The notes under the pieces were generated by a model. That model saw nothing but the letters and a program-made list of their open reading frames with translations, was not told the DNA's origin and did no database searches. The position numbers were made by a program, and so were the translations under genes. A DNA stretch of 63,977 nucleotides, counting the filler, from Reclinomonas americana ATCC 50394 (lineage: Eukaryota), in the NCBI GenBank assembly GCA_048213135.1. It is 6 parts of 5 records of this genome, joined end to end, with 100 filler letters (N's around TTAATTAATTAA, not from the genome) between each part and the next. Parts side by side here need not be neighbours in the genome. Positions count along the whole stretch, not along the records: positions 1 to 31,722 come from PS015341.1; 5 more parts are not named here. The stretch is one strand, 5' to 3'. This document shows, in pieces, positions 11,291-29,658 of this stretch; positions within the stretch are counted from its first letter, which is position 1; the number at the start of each line of letters is the position of its first letter.

Positions 11291-12376
11291 ATGTCAGAGA
11301 CGCCTTCTTCTGTCTTATGCAAGTGTTTGCGCGGTCACACTGACTCAGTATTCGCTGTCGCCGTCACTCCCGATGGTCAGCATGCTGTGAGTGGGAGTTT
11401 TGACAACACATTGCAGGTGTGGTCACTGGCAAGTGGCGACGAAGTGAGACGATTGGAGGGCCACGCAAAGTGGGTGAACTGTGTTGCAATCACCCCCACT
11501 GGTCAGCATGCTGTGAGTGGGAGCTGGGACACTACTGTGCGAGTGTGGTCTCTGACGAGTGGTGAGGAGGTGCGGCGGATGGAGGGACACACTGGTCAGG
11601 TGCGCTCTGTTGCCGTCACGCCCGATGGTCGACATGTGGTGAGTGGGAGCGAGGACACGACCGTGCGAGTGTGGGCACTGGCGAGTGGGGAAGAAGTGCG
11701 ACGGTTGGAGGGCCACAGCACAGGTGTGGACCCAGTCGCCGTCACTCCCGATGGGCAGCACATTGTCAGTGGCGGCTGGGACCACACTGTGCGTGTGTGG
11801 TCACTGGCGACTGGGGAACAGCTGCGACTGCTGGTCGGGCACACTAACTGGATATCTTGCGTTGCTGTTACTCCCGATGGCCAGCACATTGTTAGCGGCA
11901 GCTTTGACAGGTCCGTGCGCGTGTGGTCGCTGGCGAGTGGCGAGGAAGTGCGACAGTTGGAGGGATGCACCGGATTGGTCTTGGCAATCGCTGTTGCTCC
12001 CGATGGTCGGTTTGTGGTGACTGGTGGTGAGGACGAGACGGTGGGTGTCTGGTCCCTGGCGACTGGCATTGAAGTAAGACGACTCGAGGGTCACAGTGGC
12101 ACGGTGCATTGTTTGGCCATCACTCCCGACGGTCATCGCATTGTGAGTGGGGCTAACGACGAGACGGTGCGAGTGTGGTCCACGCCGTGCGGCCTCGCTC
12201 AGCAGGAGCTCGACTACGCCCGTTTCGCGATGCGCACTGTGCAGGCGATGCAGCAAGATGATGACGCGGAGCTGGGGCGTCGCTGCTTGGCGGAGATCGT
12301 GCTGCGATGCTTCATCGTCGAGGAGGCAAGCGTTGTTGTTTATCGACTCTCCAGTGGTAACAGATTCTTTCCGTAG
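11291..12376 (+). CDS. WD40 array gene 1: 7 WD40 repeats + conserved C-terminal tail, intronless, 361 aa
   Basis: Seven 42-aa GH...VAVTPDG..VSGSxDxTVRVWSL repeats, then STPCGLAQQELD...CLAEIVLRCF. Confidence 0.95.
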   Translation: MSETPSSVLCKCLRGHTDSVFAVAVTPDGQHAVSGSFDNTLQVWSLASGDEVRRLEGHAKWVNCVAITPTGQHAVSGSWDTTVRVWSLTSGEEVRRMEGHTGQVRSVAVTPDGRHVVSGSEDTTVRVWALASGEEVRRLEGHSTGVDPVAVTPDGQHIVSGGWDHTVRVWSLATGEQLRLLVGHTNWISCVAVTPDGQHIVSGSFDRSVRVWSLASGEEVRQLEGCTGLVLAIAVAPDGRFVVTGGEDETVGVWSLATGIEVRRLEGHSGTVHCLAITPDGHRIVSGANDETVRVWSTPCGLAQQELDYARFAMRTVQAMQQDDDAELGRRCLAEIVLRCFIVEEASVVVYRLSSGNRFFP

Positions 12377-12520
12377 CGGGAGGCGAAGGTCGAGAAGTTG
12401 TCTTGGTTTGCAGTAAACTGTGTTGTGGTAGCACTCATACGTCCCGACGTGCAGCACATCAAGAGAAGTGTCCCCTTCAAAGGACACTCACTTTCTCACA
12501 CACTTCGTCACGCATTCACC

Positions 12521-13612
12521 ATGTCATCCGCCCCTCGTTCTCTCCCATGCCAGTGCTTGCGCGGGCACACTGACTCAGTGTACGCAGTCGCCATCACTCC
12601 CGATGGCCAGCACATCGTCAGCGGGAGTGGTGACAGAAGGATCCGGGTGTGGTCACTGGCAAGTGGCCAGCAGGTGCGACTGCTGAAGGGACACACGGAT
12701 GCTGTGCACGGTGTTGCCGTCACTCCCGACGGTCGGCACGTGGTAAGTGGCAGCTGGGACCACTCCGTGCGTGTCTGGTCACTGGCAAGCGGAAAAGAGG
12801 TGCGACGGCCGACGACTCACCACCTGAGTGTGACCTCGGTTGCTGTCACTCCCGATGGCCTGCACATAGTCAGTGGAAGTGCTGATACGACCGTGCGTGT
12901 GTGGGCACTGGCGAGTGGCGCTGAGGTGCGACAGTTGAAGGGACACACCACGACGGTGTCGTCAGTCGCTGTCTCTCCCGATGGTCAGCACGTGGTGAGT
13001 GGGAGCGCAGATGGCAGTGTGCGCGTGTGGTGCCTGGCGAGTGGAGCTGAGGTGCGACGACTTGATGGACACACCGACTGGGTATCCTGTGTTGCTGTCA
13101 CTCCCGATGGCCAGCACATAGTGAGTTGCAGTTATGAGGAGACAGTGCGAGTGCGGTCACTGGCGAGTGGGGAGGAGGTACGGTGGTTGGAGGGGCACGC
13201 TGGCTTTGTCAAATCGATCTCTGTCACTCCCGATGGTCGGTACGTGGTGACTGGGGGCGAGGACGAGACGGTGCGTGTTTTGTCACTGGCCACGGGCAAG
13301 GAAGTCCGCCGACTGCACGGTCACTCTTATGCGGTGGAATGTGTGGCCGCCACTCCCGATGGTCATCACATAGTGAGTGGGAGTGACGACGATACGGTGC
13401 GAGTGTGGTCCACGCCGAGCGGTCTCGCTCAGCAGGAGCTCGACTGCGCCCGTTCCGCGATGCGCATTGTGCAAGAGATGCAACAAGACAGCGAAGGGGG
13501 AGATGAGGACGATCCAAGACGCCTGGTGGAGATTGTGCTGCGCTGCTTCCTGGTGGAGGAGGCGGAGGTGGTTGTTTACAGGTGCTTTGCCGATGGTGGT
13601 TTTTCATTGTAG
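12521..13612 (+). CDS. WD40 array gene 2
   Basis: ATG at 12521 (MSSAPRSLPCQCLRGH), 7 repeats, same tail. Confidence 0.93.
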   Translation: MSSAPRSLPCQCLRGHTDSVYAVAITPDGQHIVSGSGDRRIRVWSLASGQQVRLLKGHTDAVHGVAVTPDGRHVVSGSWDHSVRVWSLASGKEVRRPTTHHLSVTSVAVTPDGLHIVSGSADTTVRVWALASGAEVRQLKGHTTTVSSVAVSPDGQHVVSGSADGSVRVWCLASGAEVRRLDGHTDWVSCVAVTPDGQHIVSCSYEETVRVRSLASGEEVRWLEGHAGFVKSISVTPDGRYVVTGGEDETVRVLSLATGKEVRRLHGHSYAVECVAATPDGHHIVSGSDDDTVRVWSTPSGLAQQELDCARSAMRIVQEMQQDSEGGDEDDPRRLVEIVLRCFLVEEAEVVVYRCFADGGFSL

Positions 13613-13808
13613 GCGGAGAGTCGTCTCTCTCTCTTTACATTCTTTCCCAGTGTGTTTGTGCGTGCCTCCGTCCACGATCGCTTGGCCTCTCCGAGTTCAG
13701 TAAACAGTCACGCAACGACACCCAGTGCCGACGTTCCGACGTGCAGACTCGTCCCTTCTTTCAAGGACAACTCTTTCTTATCCGTCGTCTCATTACTCCA
13801 CGCCTACC

Positions 13809-28006: not shown

Positions 28007-28234
28007 NNNNNNNNNNNNNNNNNNNNNNNNNNNNNNNNNNNNNNNNNNNNNNNNNNNNNNNNNNNNNNNNNNNNNNNNNNNNNNNNNNNNNNNNNNNNNN
28101 NNNNNNNNNNNNNNNNNNNNNNNNNNNNNNNNNNNNNNNNNNNCGTACCGTACGTACCGTACGTACCGTACGTCGTCGTACGTCGGTCGTCGTACGTACG
28201 TAACGTACGTACGTCGTACGTAGTAGTAGTAGTG

Positions 28235-28309
<75 letters not shown>

Positions 28310-28563
28310 GTCTGTCTGTGTGTGTTGTTGCCAGTTTCTCGTCATGTTTGTATGGTATGTGTTCGTCTTCTTGTCTCCCTCCATTTGCAGTGTTGCCTTC
28401 CCTGCTGCTTCAGTTTCCGTGCAGTAAAGAACACAGTCATTGCTTCACCAGCGGGTTGCTGACTTGCTTTTTTCGACAACATGTGTCCCTGCCGTGGAGG
28501 ACAAGCAACACACACCGACACTCTCTCTCTCTCTCTCTCGTACGTACCTCTCTTACACGCACC

Positions 28564-29658
28564 ATGTCCTCTCCTCCTCCTCCACCCTCTCTCCCCAGCA
28601 AGTGCCTGCGCGGACACACAAACAGTGTGTACTCCATTGCTGTCACTCCCGACGGCATGCACATTGTGAGTTGTGGAGCCGACATGTCAGTGCGAGTGTG
28701 GTCAGTGGAGAGTGGCGCAGAAGTGCAACGATTGATGGGTCACACGCGCGTCGCAATGTGTGTCGCCCTCACTCCTAACGGCCAGCACATTGTCAGTGGT
28801 GGTCGGGATTTCACTGTGCGAGTGTGGTCTCTGGCGAGTGGTGACGAAGTGCGGCTTTTGAAAGGTCACACTGACACTGTGTTCTCTGTCACTGTCACCC
28901 CCGACGGTCAGCATGTCGTGAGCGGCAGCTTCGATACAAATGTGCGAGTGTGGTCACTGGCGAGTGGAGACGAGGTGCGACGATTGGAGGGACACTCGGG
29001 TATCGTGTGGTCTGTCGCCGTCACCCCCGACAGTCAGCATGTCGTGAGCGGAAGTGGAGATAAAACCATTCGCGTGTGGTCTGTGAGGAGCGGGGAGGAA
29101 GTGCGCCGGTTTGTGGGGCACACTCACTTGGTGCGGTCAGTCGCTGTCACTCCCGACGGGCAGCATGTGGTGAGCGGTGGTCGGGACCTCACGGTCCGGG
29201 TGTGGTCGCTGGTAACAGGCGAGGAAGTGCAGCGGCTGGAGGGGCATACGAGTGAGGTGAGCTCTCTCGCCGTCTCCACCGACGGCCAACATGTTGTGAG
29301 CGGAGGTCGAGATATGACAGTGCGAGTGTGGTCGCTGGCGAGCGGAGAGGAGGAGCGACGGTTGGAGGGACACTCTGGTCCGGTGTATTCTGTCGCTGTC
29401 TCCCTCGACGGTCGCCACATTGCGAGTGCGGGTGGCCAGGACATGACTGTCCGGGTGTGGTCCACTCCCTTTGATCTCGCGCAGCAGGAGCTCGACTGTA
29501 CTCGCTCGGCCATGCGCGTCGTGCAAGAGATGCAACAAGGCGTGGAAGGGGGTGACGAGGATGAGCAGCGCTGCCTGGTGGAGATTGTGCTGCGGTGCTT
29601 TGTGGTGGAGGAGGCGGAGGTGGTCGTCCATCGGTGCTTTACCGGTAGCCGATTGTGA
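28564..29658 (+). CDS. WD40 array gene 13
   Basis: MSSPPPPPSLPSKCLRGH, 7 repeats, tail ending FTGSRL*. Confidence 0.95.
   Translation: MSSPPPPPSLPSKCLRGHTNSVYSIAVTPDGMHIVSCGADMSVRVWSVESGAEVQRLMGHTRVAMCVALTPNGQHIVSGGRDFTVRVWSLASGDEVRLLKGHTDTVFSVTVTPDGQHVVSGSFDTNVRVWSLASGDEVRRLEGHSGIVWSVAVTPDSQHVVSGSGDKTIRVWSVRSGEEVRRFVGHTHLVRSVAVTPDGQHVVSGGRDLTVRVWSLVTGEEVQRLEGHTSEVSSLAVSTDGQHVVSGGRDMTVRVWSLASGEEERRLEGHSGPVYSVAVSLDGRHIASAGGQDMTVRVWSTPFDLAQQELDCTRSAMRVVQEMQQGVEGGDEDEQRCLVEIVLRCFVVEEAEVVVHRCFTGSRL

What the first reader, a model, noticed from the sequence alone, without database searches (positions are those of the whole stretch)
11291..29658. Tandem array of at least 13 stand-alone, highly repetitive WD40 genes: candidate diversifying recognition (immune-like) repertoire
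Seen: 13 paralogs (11 complete counting reconstructed gene 4, 2 cut by gaps) at ~1.2-1.8-kb spacing. Each has a short Pro-rich leader, 7 nearly identical 42-aa WD40 repeats and a conserved ~60-aa tail. Known: high internal repeat identity is unusual for housekeeping WD40 proteins but typical of fungal HNWD non-self receptors (Podospora HET-E/HET-D) and of bacterial STAND-associated WD40s. Here no NACHT/NB-ARC or HET domain is attached. Inference: a family of soluble single-propeller sensors or adaptors with many binding specificities, possibly for pathogen, prey or non-self recognition in a protist. I do not recognise it as a described family.
Basis: partly seen in the sequence, partly recalled or inferred. 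Interest (0 to 1): 0.88.

Follow-up and report, generated by a model that had tools for sequence, protein, structure and literature searches.

The report
Tandem array of WD40 propeller genes
An unidentified single-celled eukaryote carries at least 14 neighbouring genes for small ring-shaped WD40 proteins that keep the same scaffold and the same unusual tail but differ on their binding face, which fits a family of adaptors with varied targets, although an immune role is not shown.

Summary
Window 11291-29658 carries at least 14 intronless paralogs, one more than reported. Ten are complete, one lacks only its last residues and three are cut by gaps. Three lie on the minus strand between gaps.

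Each gene encodes a short leader, seven 42-aa WD40 repeats and a conserved 66-aa tail. "Nearly identical repeats" is wrong: repeats within a protein are about 57% identical in amino acids and 64% in nucleotides.

Variation concentrates at five top-face positions per blade. The scaffold is under purifying selection (dN/dS 0.11-0.31). The variable sites evolve near neutrality, with no clear positive selection.

Paralogs are old (synonymous difference 0.14 to about 0.7). They are mosaics made by in-register recombination.

The tail folds as an alpha-helical hairpin. It matches no Pfam family and has only three relatives among 1.84 billion representative proteins. The propeller is closest to regular WD40 repeats of unnamed metagenome proteins.

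No NACHT, HET or other effector domain is attached or nearby.

Best reading: a lineage-restricted family of stand-alone WD40 adaptors with a constant coupling handle and varied, but related, binding faces. The immune-repertoire idea is possible but unsupported. Organism, expression and ligands are unknown.

The parts
11291..12376 (+). g1, complete gene (361 aa): leader MSETPSS, 7 WD40 repeats, tail
12521..13612 (+). g2, complete gene (363 aa); repeat 3 has PTTHH in place of LEGH
13809..14876 (+). g3, complete gene (355 aa); blade 5 shortened by 5 aa and lacks the tetrad Asp
15929..16932 (-). g4, minus strand; 334 aa readable, the last ~25 aa of the tail lost in gap 14973-15928; blade 4 shortened by 2 aa
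17400..17990 (-). g5, minus strand; N-terminal 197 aa (leader plus 4 repeats), rest in gap 17066-17399
18293..18380 (-). gX, minus strand; only the last 28 aa of a tail plus the stop codon, body in gap 18381-18774
18890..19984 (+). g6, complete gene (364 aa)
20751..21848 (+). g7, complete gene (365 aa); used as reference. Residues 12-299 form a 7-blade propeller, 301-324 and 335-359 the tail helices
22552..23646 (+). g8, complete gene (364 aa from the conserved ATG; an in-frame upstream ATG lies at 22498)
23948..25051 (+). g9, complete gene (367 aa; upstream in-frame ATG at 23894)
25402..26499 (+). g10, complete gene (365 aa)
26822..27922 (+). g11, complete gene (366 aa; upstream in-frame ATG at 26744)
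28564..29658 (+). g12, complete gene (364 aa), last of the array; ends in -SRL
21648..21845 (+). Tail of g7 (66 aa), representative of the conserved C-terminal alpha-hairpin with invariant LRCF.VEE motif; equivalent tails at the 3' end of every complete copy
22419..22551 (+). Example of the conserved upstream module present in 12 of 13 aligned units: pyrimidine tract, CAG|TAAA(C), GTCC..GGAC palindrome, CA-rich stretch, ATG

Best explanation
The locus is a lineage-restricted multigene family of small soluble adaptor proteins.

Shown: each protein is a rigid seven-bladed WD40 propeller. Its N-terminal strand closes the ring, and nearly every blade carries an intact D-H-S/T-W hydrogen-bond tetrad. 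A constant 66-aa C-terminal alpha-helical hairpin follows.

Shown: the scaffold and tail are held by purifying selection. The residues that line the top face differ from blade to blade and, less strongly, from paralog to paralog. These are repeat positions 15, 16 and 18 (d-a loop and start of strand a) and 34 and 36 (flanking the Asp of the b-c turn).

Inferred: the top face is the ligand-binding site. The paralogs bind different but related partners. The hairpin is the common coupling module, either docking to one shared partner (for example a ligase or signalling complex) or assembling with itself.

Shown: the array grew by tandem duplication of a unit that includes its short intergenic control region. 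It is continually re-assorted by in-register recombination or gene conversion that swaps blocks of blades and tails between copies.
For: Gene family:
- 14 distinct copies; the highest CDS identity is 93.5% (g6-g7).
- All 10 complete copies keep open frames despite synonymous differences of 0.14 to about 0.7.

Fold:
- 7 Pfam WD40 stretches, E about 1e-77.
- The AlphaFold2 model has 7 blades with pLDDT above 90.
- The Foldseek best hit is 5yzv: rmsd 0.9 A, 40% identity.
- Tetrads are intact in 69 of 76 scored repeats.

Constraint pattern:
- Entropy is 2.9-3.4 bits at positions 15, 16, 18, 34 and 36, against below 1.3 bits at most scaffold positions.
- Scaffold dN/dS is 0.11-0.31 in 66 of 66 gene pairs.
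- On minimum-spanning-tree edges between close repeats, the N/S count ratio is 2.75 at variable codons against 0.98 at scaffold codons (Fisher p = 0.034).
- Variable sites are rich in W, Y, F, R and M: 7.9, 5.8, 3.9, 8.2 and 5.3% against 3.8, 0.2, 0.7, 4.4 and 0.4% in the scaffold.
- There are 67 distinct six-residue signatures among 76 repeats.

Tail:
- 80% mean column identity.
- Folded alone it gives two helices with pLDDT above 90.
- It is shared with P0121, P0123 and P0124. The last two have the same layout of one propeller plus tail.

Recombination:
- 6 of 6 triplets tested, chosen by eye, give max-chi-square permutation p <= 0.0005.
- 57 of 76 repeats have a nearest neighbour at the same blade index.

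Unit structure: the intergenic module is conserved.
Against: - No ligand, partner, expression or localisation data exist. No RNA or DNA run was listed and no genome is held.
- Variable sites evolve at roughly the neutral rate, so relaxed constraint without functional diversification is not excluded.
- The hairpin fold is generic. The best structural matches are tied at Z 8-9.5, below the level trusted for helical models. A coupling role is therefore not demonstrated.
- The mosaic patterns come from a gapped draft assembly. However, exchanged segments are 93-99% identical rather than 100%, which argues against assembler chimeras.
- g2, g3 and g4 carry damaged blades and may be decaying.
Confidence: 0.55

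Rival explanations
1. The array is a diversifying immune-like or non-self recognition repertoire. Each propeller senses a pathogen, prey or non-self molecule and signals through a trans-acting partner bound by the tail.
For: - The hypervariable top-face positions on a constant scaffold match the pattern described for HNWD sensors.
- The genes form a tandem array in which recombination re-assorts blades.
- Binding-type residues are enriched at the variable sites.
- A constant tail could serve as a signalling handle.
Against: - No NTPase, death-fold, TIR, HET or other effector domain is in the genes or among the neighbouring ORFs scanned (74 of 166 ORFs of at least 110 aa outside the array; 8 had Pfam hits, none of this kind).
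- Repeat identity is about 57%, not 80-100%, and there is no concerted evolution within genes.
- dN/dS at the variable sites is not above 1.
- Paralogs are old.
- Position 18 is conserved per blade among g4-g12.
- PADLOC gives only a generic WD40 overlap.
Confidence: 0.15
2. The array reflects neutral birth-and-death ('genomic drift') or a dosage array. The copies do one job, the top-face differences are tolerated drift, and copy number is what matters, if anything.
For: - Variable sites evolve near the neutral rate.
- Several copies have damaged blades.
- Large adaptor families such as plant F-box genes have been interpreted as genomic drift (PMC3030570; title and abstract seen in the listing).
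Against: - Aromatic, Arg and Met residues are enriched at the variable sites, and residues at position 18 are blade-specific. This is not what unconstrained drift predicts.
- All 10 complete copies retain open frames at high synonymous divergence.
- A pure dosage array would be expected to be homogenised, yet copies differ by 6.5-35% in nucleotides.
Confidence: 0.2
3. The array is an assembly artefact. Alleles or a few loci were inflated into an array, and chimeric joins created the mosaics.
For: - The array holds 7 gaps, and 4 copies are truncated by them.
- The minus-strand block is bounded by gaps.
- Short-read assemblies are known to fail on repetitive WD40 domains (abstract of PMC12222747).
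Against: - No two copies are identical (maximum 93.5%).
- g8 to g11 lie in 5.6 kb of uninterrupted sequence.
- Exchanged segments differ by 1-7% rather than 0%.
- g1, g2 and g3 are contiguous and only 67-75% identical to one another.
Confidence: 0.03
4. The genes are duplicated orthologs of a conserved housekeeping WD40 protein such as G-beta, RACK1, WDR5, WDR3, THOC3 or Prp19.
For: Some propeller-specific Pfam models exceed their curated cut-offs. WDR3_1st does so in all three proteins scanned. G-beta does so in g7 only, and THOC3 in g1 only.
Against: - The best-scoring specific family differs between paralogs: WDR3 for g7, THOC3 for g1, Prp19 for g12. This is expected from closeness to the WD40 consensus rather than orthology.
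- The best database hits are metagenome WD40 proteins of the regular repeat type, and they cover only the propeller.
- None of the database or structure matches seen extends into the tail: whole-protein hits and the structure search cover only the propeller, and tail searches return only the three unnamed relatives.
Confidence: 0.02

Closest known systems
Fungal HNWD/NWD NOD-like receptors (Podospora HET-E, HET-D, HET-R)
   Same: Both have 42-aa WD40 repeats with a conserved scaffold and a few hypervariable positions on the predicted interaction face. In both, recombination re-assorts repeats (passages of PMC12222747).
   Different: - HNWD proteins carry N-terminal HET and NACHT domains; these genes have neither.
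- HNWD repeats are 80-100% identical within a gene through concerted evolution; here they are about 57% in amino acids and 64% in nucleotides, and exchange is between genes in register, not between repeats of one gene.
- Diversifying selection is not shown here.
- These proteins have exactly 7 repeats forming one propeller plus a C-terminal hairpin.
Regular (highly or moderately repetitive) WD40 proteins of bacteria and metagenomes, e.g. Thermomonospora curvata WD40 (5yzv), Nostoc punctiforme propeller (2ymu) and the unnamed metagenome proteins P0002, P0012 and P0015
   Same: - These are the best sequence and structure matches. Full-length identity reaches 58% (P0002). Repeats match the window consensus at up to 31 of 42 positions, and up to 30 of 37 non-variable ones.
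- 5yzv aligns at rmsd 0.9 A and 40% identity.
- They share tetrad-rich, consensus-like blades with variable hotspot sites (passages of PMC5587647).
   Different: The 7 metagenome proteins read are longer or carry other N-terminal regions, and all 7 end in a W/R-Y-I-G-D-L motif. They lack the LRCF hairpin tail and the leader. They do not sit in a eukaryotic tandem array next to intron-bearing genes. Whether the likeness reflects gene transfer or shared closeness to the consensus is open.
Expanded substrate-adaptor families of ubiquitin ligases (F-box, MATH-BTB, WD40-SOCS-box proteins)
   Same: The logic is similar: a variable protein-binding domain joined to a small constant helical box that docks to a shared machine, in large lineage-specific tandem expansions (listing abstracts of PMC8665587 and PMC4091423).
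   Different: No F-box, BTB or SOCS-box signal appears in any of 13 tails at E <= 10. The tail is a two-helix hairpin with no specific structural match. The link to ubiquitination is an analogy only.
P0123 (394 aa) and P0124 (381 aa), unnamed proteins from assembled public sequencing runs
   Same: They are the only full-length proteins found with the same tail (E 1.8e-17 and 1.5e-19 against the tail profile). They have the same layout of one propeller followed by the tail.
   Different: Their propellers are degenerate: 28% and 25% identical to g7, and no repeat matches the window consensus at 20 or more of 42 positions. Their source organisms and genomic context are unknown.

Membership tests
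WD40 repeat beta-propeller (Pfam PF00400) | Several 40-odd-residue repeats matching the WD40 profile | tested here: met
   7 stretches per protein, E 5e-77 to 1e-77, in 3 of 3 proteins scanned; 42-aa period
WD40 repeat beta-propeller (Pfam PF00400) | Closed seven-bladed propeller fold | tested here: met
   AlphaFold2 model has 28 strands in 7 blades with pLDDT above 90; Foldseek 5yzv rmsd 0.9 A over 287 columns. This is a prediction, not a solved structure.
WD40 repeat beta-propeller (Pfam PF00400) | GH and WD dipeptides and the D-H-S/T-W tetrad | tested here: met
   G12 95%, H13 97%, S31 93%, D35 95%, W41 97%. The WD dipeptide reads WS in 93% of repeats. Tetrads are intact in 69 of 76 repeats.
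Fungal HNWD NLRs (HET-E/D/R) | N-terminal HET (or other effector) domain and NACHT NTPase | tested here: not met
   Only propeller families in Pfam (best 25 of 52-53 shown). Only 10-13 residues precede the first blade. The next gene upstream ends 145-700 nt away.
Fungal HNWD NLRs (HET-E/D/R) | High internal conservation of repeats (80-100% within a gene) by concerted evolution | tested here: not met
   Mean 0.50-0.60 aa and 0.60-0.66 nt within genes. Within-gene nt identity of 0.66 equals that between genes at different blade index (0.658). Criterion taken from PMC12222747.
Fungal HNWD NLRs (HET-E/D/R) | A few hypervariable codons on the interaction face under diversifying selection | tested here: inconclusive
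   Hypervariable top-face positions are present. However, pairwise dN/dS is mostly 0.2-1.0 with some pairs above 1, many pairs are saturated, and the N/S count ratio of 2.75 is near neutral.
Highly-Repetitive WD40 of Hu et al. 2017 (internal identity >= 0.7) | Internal repeat identity of at least 0.7 | tested here: not met
   0.50-0.60 by my ungapped measure; cut-offs from PMC5587647. The proteins fall in that paper's Moderately-Repetitive band (0.4-0.7). The paper's exact measure may differ from mine.
WD40-SOCS-box / F-box / BTB ligase adaptors | A recognisable SOCS box, F-box or BTB domain next to the propeller | tested here: inconclusive
   No such Pfam hit in 13 of 13 tails at E <= 10 or among the families shown for whole proteins. 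The structure search gives only generic hairpins. A very divergent box cannot be excluded.
Housekeeping WD40 orthogroups (G-beta, WDR5, WDR3, THOC3, Prp19) | Consistent best match above the curated cut-off to one propeller-specific family | tested here: not met
   The best specific family differs among the 3 paralogs scanned. WDR5 and Prp19 are below cut-off in all three. G-beta is above it in 1 of 3 and THOC3 in 1 of 3.

The most novel reading that the evidence does not exclude
A protist has built a combinatorial recognition system from whole propeller blades. A hyper-stable WD40 scaffold closely resembling the regular bacterial repeat type (descent from it is possible but untested) is fused to an orphan alpha-hairpin handle. 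The array keeps generating new top faces by swapping blades in register between about 14 or more tandem genes. The handle plugs every variant into one trans-acting effector. This would be a split, NTPase-free counterpart of the fungal HNWD sensors.
Probability: 0.12. Interest if true: 0.8.

Novelty: new variant of a known kind. Interest (0 to 1): 0.45.

Why it matters
Regular WD40 propellers with variable top faces are known as sensor domains of fungal and bacterial STAND proteins and as stand-alone bacterial proteins. A eukaryotic tandem array of at least 14 stand-alone copies is a different arrangement. It combines an orphan constant tail with statistically supported blade exchange between genes.

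If the paralogs prove to have different ligands, the locus would be a compact natural example of how specificity can be re-assorted on a fixed propeller scaffold. That is of interest for repeat-protein evolution and binder engineering.

If the immune reading were true, it would add a new architecture to protist self/non-self recognition.

The unresolved likeness of the propeller to metagenome repeats, set against the degenerate propellers of the only other tail-bearing proteins, also raises a testable question of domain replacement or gene transfer.

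Tried and rejected
**Organism and genome**
- No genome is held for the window.
- Earlier-findings look-ups by place and by sequence returned nothing.
- Rfam and tRNA scans of the window found nothing.
The sources of P0121, P0123 and P0124 remain unnamed.

**Expression**
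- The look-up of sequencing runs on 22419-28006 listed no run and no RNA holder.

**Tail homology**
- The word-based search of residues 290-365 among 200-639-aa proteins found none.
- The tail profile against longer proteins found only P0123 and P0124.
- Pfam at E <= 10: 1 of 13 tails hit Pdase_C33_assoc at E 0.12, taken as noise.
- PDB sequence search: one hit at E 0.92, taken as noise.
- ESM Atlas with the tail: best score 0.75, below the lead level.
- ESM Atlas with P0123: only generic WD40 clusters.
- Metagenome contig scan with the tail profile: 439 pattern matches, none confirmed.

**Tail structure and self-association**
- VIA-align over 48,161 chains gave only generic antiparallel helical hairpins, Z up to 9.5 and tied.
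- Complex prediction with two copies of the tail gave no verdict, score 0.01. The queue had been full.

**Bacterial source of the propeller**
- The genome-contig scan returned 27 loci from Cyanobacteria, Myxococcota, Planctomycetota, Actinomycetota and others, at 23-52% identity. None was of the closest repeat type, so no donor can be named.

**Other checks**
- PADLOC: only an overlap with the WD40 part of a 1972-position candidate model.
- 5'-UTR hairpin: 1 of 5 units folded better than shuffles (z -3.6); the rest had z between -0.2 and +2.4, so an RNA structure is not supported.
- Literature: full-text searches found no paper describing such an array. One search was run only for the adaptor-family analogy. 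This does not show that none exists.

Full report
**1. What is in the sequence**

The window is not one molecule. Five spacers of 44 N, TTAATTAATTAA and 44 N join six scaffolds. The finding lies in the first piece (1-31722), which also has seven ordinary gaps inside the array.

Reading all frames with the standard code gives a family of open frames exactly between 11291 and 29658. A tblastn search with one member finds 13 blocks there and none elsewhere in the window. One of these blocks (20319-21845) holds two genes.

I count 14 copies:
- Ten are complete: g1-g3, g6-g12.
- g4 lacks only the end of its tail.
- g5 has its N-terminal 197 aa.
- gX has only the last 28 aa of a tail.

g4, g5 and gX read on the minus strand. 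They sit in two contigs bounded by gaps, so either the array contains an inverted block or these contigs are mis-oriented.

No two copies are the same. The closest pair (g6-g7) is 93.5% identical over the CDS, g5-g6b 92.8%, and g1-g3 only 65-76% to anything else. The copies are therefore not duplicates of one locus. The last gene, g12, is joined without a gap to a convergent STE20-like kinase gene that has three GT-AG introns. The array is thus eukaryotic nuclear DNA, not bacterial contamination.

**2. Anatomy of one gene**

Each complete protein has 355-367 residues. It starts with a 10-13-residue leader, MSSPPPPPSLPCK in g5-g7 and g9-g12. The leader is still Pro-rich but different in g4 and g8, and not Pro-rich in g1-g3. 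Seven repeats follow at an exact 42-aa period. The exceptions are a 5-aa loss in blade 5 of g3, a 2-aa loss in blade 4 of g4, and one extra residue in blade 7 of g9, g11 and g12. A 66-aa tail ends the protein.

Pfam sees seven WD40 units (E about 1e-77) and otherwise only propeller families. AlphaFold2 on an alignment of 13 family members gives a seven-bladed propeller with pLDDT above 90. The leader's strand (residues 12-16) completes the ring.

The best solved matches are regular bacterial or designed propellers: 5yzv at rmsd 0.9 A and 40% identity, 7big, and 2ymu. All of them cover only the propeller. The His, Ser/Thr, Asp and Trp of the stabilising tetrad are present in 69 of 76 repeats. 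The classic WD dipeptide reads WS in 93% of repeats.

**3. How repetitive the repeats are**

Repeats within a protein average 0.50-0.60 amino-acid identity (range 0.33-0.83) and 0.60-0.66 nucleotide identity (maximum 0.80). Tandem Repeats Finder detects the 126-nt period at 68-76% matches.

In the scheme of Hu et al. 2017 (passages read) this is the moderately repetitive band (0.4-0.7), not the highly repetitive one (at least 0.7). That paper says about 2% of fungal and protist WD40 proteins exceed 0.4. In Podospora HNWD genes the repeats are 80-100% identical within a gene (passages of PMC12222747).

Within-gene repeat identity (0.66 nt) equals that between different blade positions of different genes (0.658). 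The same blade position in different genes is closer (0.716). In 57 of 76 cases the nearest neighbour of a repeat is the same-numbered blade of another gene. There is therefore no sign of concerted evolution among the repeats of one gene. The seven blades are old and individually recognisable.

**4. Where the variation is**

Over 76 repeats, entropy is 2.9-3.4 bits at positions 15, 16, 18, 34 and 36 of the unit (register L1...G12 H13...D35...W41 S42). It is about 2 bits at positions 11 and 14, and below 1.3 bits at most other positions.

By the standard WD40 topology (my knowledge, consistent with the strand positions), positions 15, 16 and 18 are the d-a loop and the start of strand a. Positions 34 and 36 flank the Asp of the b-c turn. 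This is the top face, where WD40 proteins usually bind partners.

These sites are rich in W, Y, F, R and M compared with the scaffold. They give 67 distinct six-residue signatures among 76 repeats.

Part of this diversity is between blades rather than between paralogs. Among g4-g12, position 18 is Y, M, variable, Y/W, R, W and Y in blades 1-7, with 78-88% agreement in five of the seven blades. Mean identity of the five variable sites at the same blade is 0.29-0.54. The paralogs thus share a partly conserved core of the top face.

**5. Selection**

Nei-Gojobori estimates for all 66 gene pairs give scaffold dN/dS of 0.11-0.31. Synonymous differences run from 0.14 (g6-g7) to about 0.7. The family is old and the scaffold is strongly constrained.

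At the 35 variable codons the ratio scatters from 0.2 to 1.9, and many pairs are saturated. To use recent changes only, I counted changes on minimum-spanning-tree edges between same-blade repeats at least 88% identical. This gave 22 non-synonymous and 8 synonymous changes at variable codons, against 47 and 48 at scaffold codons (Fisher p = 0.034).

With about three non-synonymous sites per synonymous site, this puts the variable codons near omega 0.8-0.9. The variable sites are clearly released from the constraint on the scaffold, but positive selection is not shown.

**6. Recombination**

Sliding windows show mosaics:
- g6 is 97-99% identical to g7 over the first ~380 nt and 93-98% identical to g10 afterwards.
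- g10 is closest to g5 in blades 1-2 and to g6/g7 in blades 4-7.
- The tail of g7 is 98% identical to that of g8.
- g9 and g11 share blade 6 at 98%.

Max-chi-square tests on six triplets, picked by eye, all gave permutation p <= 0.0005, with breakpoints near repeat boundaries. Because the exchanged segments differ by 1-7% rather than 0%, assembler chimeras are an unlikely cause. A long-read check is still needed.

**7. The tail**

The tail is the most conserved part between paralogs: 80% mean column identity, with invariant L-R-C-F and V-E-E-A motifs.
- It matches no Pfam family at E <= 10 and has no PDB sequence relative.
- A profile search of 1.84 billion representative proteins found four hits. 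P0122 is a repeat protein matched in a low-complexity way and was set aside. P0121 is a 116-aa fragment with one regular repeat plus tail. P0123 (394 aa) and P0124 (381 aa) are the other two.
- P0123 and P0124 have the same plan, one propeller then the tail. Their propellers are degenerate, at 28% and 25% identity to g7. A second search among longer proteins returned only these two, both from assembled public runs and unnamed.
- Folded alone, the tail is an antiparallel two-helix hairpin, with helices 2-27 and 35-64 at pLDDT above 90 and an acidic loop between them.
- In the full-length model the same helices appear at lower confidence, pLDDT 60-74.
- The first helix is amphipathic (hydrophobic moment 0.51). 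The second is broadly hydrophobic.
- Structure comparison gives only generic hairpins.

**8. Relatives of the propeller**

The whole-protein search returned 4019 significant hits among 8000 scored candidates. In the 120 listed, alignment coverage is mostly 63-82%, which corresponds to the propeller.

I read seven of the most identical hits, at 48-58% identity. All seven have repeats of the form VAVTPDG-x-YVVSGS...EVRRFTGH, all seven end in W/R-Y-I-G-D-L, and they carry various other N-terminal regions. They come from metagenome contigs and are unnamed.

Their repeats match the window's 42-aa consensus at up to 31 of 42 positions and up to 30 of 37 non-variable positions. The top-scoring generic hits P0001 and P0003 reach 20-23 of 42. 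P0123 and P0124 have no repeat reaching 20 of 42.

The propeller therefore looks like the regular WD40 type of these metagenome proteins, while the tail is shared with proteins whose propellers are degenerate. Gene transfer, propeller replacement, or decay in P0123 and P0124 could each explain this. I could not decide between them. A scan of prokaryote genomes found only ordinary WD40 genes at 23-52% identity.

**9. Surroundings and gene expression signals**

The duplicated unit includes the spacer. After each stop codon comes a conserved stretch, then a pyrimidine tract ((CT)n or (TCCC)n). Next come CAG|TAAA(C) about 110-140 nt before the ATG, one of two alternative middle segments, a GTCC...GGAC palindrome, and a CA-rich run.

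The motif CAGTAAA is present in 10 of the 13 aligned upstreams. g1 lacks it, and those of g6 and g7 are cut by gaps. The spacers between g1, g2 and g3 are only 144 and 196 nt. A pyrimidine tract followed by AG, with spacers this short, suggests polycistronic transcription with trans-splicing or a 5'-UTR intron. This is inference only.

The palindrome is not supported as an RNA hairpin; 1 of 5 units folds better than shuffles.

Neighbouring genes are a POT-family transporter fragment, an unassigned ORF upstream and the kinase downstream. Other scaffolds of the window carry a U-box protein, an XPG-type nuclease and a LINE-like reverse transcriptase. No NTPase, TIR, death-fold or HET domain was found in the 74 of 166 ORFs (at least 110 aa, outside the array) that I scanned. 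GC3 of the WD40 genes (0.63-0.71) is somewhat below that of the kinase exons (0.72-0.80).

**10. Interpretation**

Shown:
- A real, old, constrained multigene family of stand-alone seven-bladed WD40 proteins with an orphan helical tail.
- Variation focused on the top face.
- Exchange of blade blocks between genes.

Inferred:
- The top face binds ligands that differ among paralogs but are related, because position 18 is conserved per blade.
- The tail couples every paralog to a common partner or to itself.

The nearest functional analogies are the sensor propellers of HNWD receptors and the expanded ligase-adaptor families. Membership of either is not met or not testable (see the membership table).

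The immune reading is not excluded but has no positive evidence beyond the variability pattern. A neutral birth-and-death reading is weakened by the composition and blade-specific conservation of the variable sites and by the intact frames. It is not excluded either.

**11. Limits**

The organism is unknown, no whole genome is held, no sequencing run could be listed, and the sources of the three tail relatives could not be looked up. The self-association test of the tail gave no verdict. The selection analyses are pairwise and ignore recombination. All structural statements rest on predictions.

Papers: PMC5587647 and PMC12222747 were read as passages found by term search. PMC4083563 was also read as passages and proved irrelevant. 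PMC3030570, PMC8665587 and PMC4091423 were seen only as listing abstracts.

Noticed in passing
window 31723-31822, 40186-40285, 51440-51539, 58925-59024, 62498-62597: Five spacers of 44 N + TTAATTAATTAA + 44 N (stop codons in all frames) show that the window is six scaffolds joined end to end. Features on either side of a spacer are not neighbours in the genome.
   Followed up: yes
window, upstream of every WD40 gene, e.g. 22419-22551, 23740-23947, 25190-25401: A conserved spacer module: pyrimidine tract, CAG|TAAA(C) about 110-140 nt before the ATG, two alternative middle segments that are themselves mosaic among units, and a GTCC..GGAC palindrome. Spacers between g1-g2 and g2-g3 are only 144 and 196 nt. 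This suggests polycistronic transcription with trans-splicing, or a 5'-UTR intron.
   Followed up: partly
window 15929-18380: Three family members (g4, g5, gX) read on the minus strand inside an otherwise plus-strand array. They lie in two contigs bounded by gaps, so this is either a real inversion or mis-oriented contigs.
   Followed up: no
window 29910-31140 (-): An STE20/PAK-like protein kinase gene with three GT-AG introns (donors GTGCGT, GTGAGT, GTTGCG), each preceded at the acceptor by a pyrimidine tract. It converges on g12 with about 250 nt between the stop codons.
   Followed up: partly
window 29647-29658: g12 ends in -SRL, which resembles a peroxisomal PTS1 tripeptide (recalled consensus). 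The other copies end in -LRL, -LGL, -FSL or -FFP, so this is probably coincidence.
   Followed up: no
window 12521-13612, 13809-14876, 15929-16932: g2 (PTTHH in place of LEGH in repeat 3; RVRS and RVLS in place of RVWS), g3 (5-aa loss removing the tetrad Asp of blade 5) and g4 (2-aa loss in blade 4) carry damaged blades. They may be decaying copies although their frames are open.
   Followed up: partly
window 60787-62211 (-) and 59269-60645: A LINE-like retroelement: a reverse-transcriptase domain (Pfam RVT_1, E 3e-11) with an FADD motif, on a separate scaffold and interrupted by gaps.
   Followed up: no
window 28144-28222 and 25092-25171, 28237-28317: Microsatellites inside the array spacers: (CGTA)n next to a gap, (CTCC)n about 20 copies, (TCTC)n about 20 copies. 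Such tracts probably caused the assembly gaps.
   Followed up: no
window 32443-32802 (+), 43982-44662 (-), 1334-1879 (-): Other recognisable genes in the window: a U-box domain protein, an XPG-I nuclease domain and a POT/PTR2 transporter fragment. None has an evident link to the array, and the first two are on other scaffolds.
   Followed up: no
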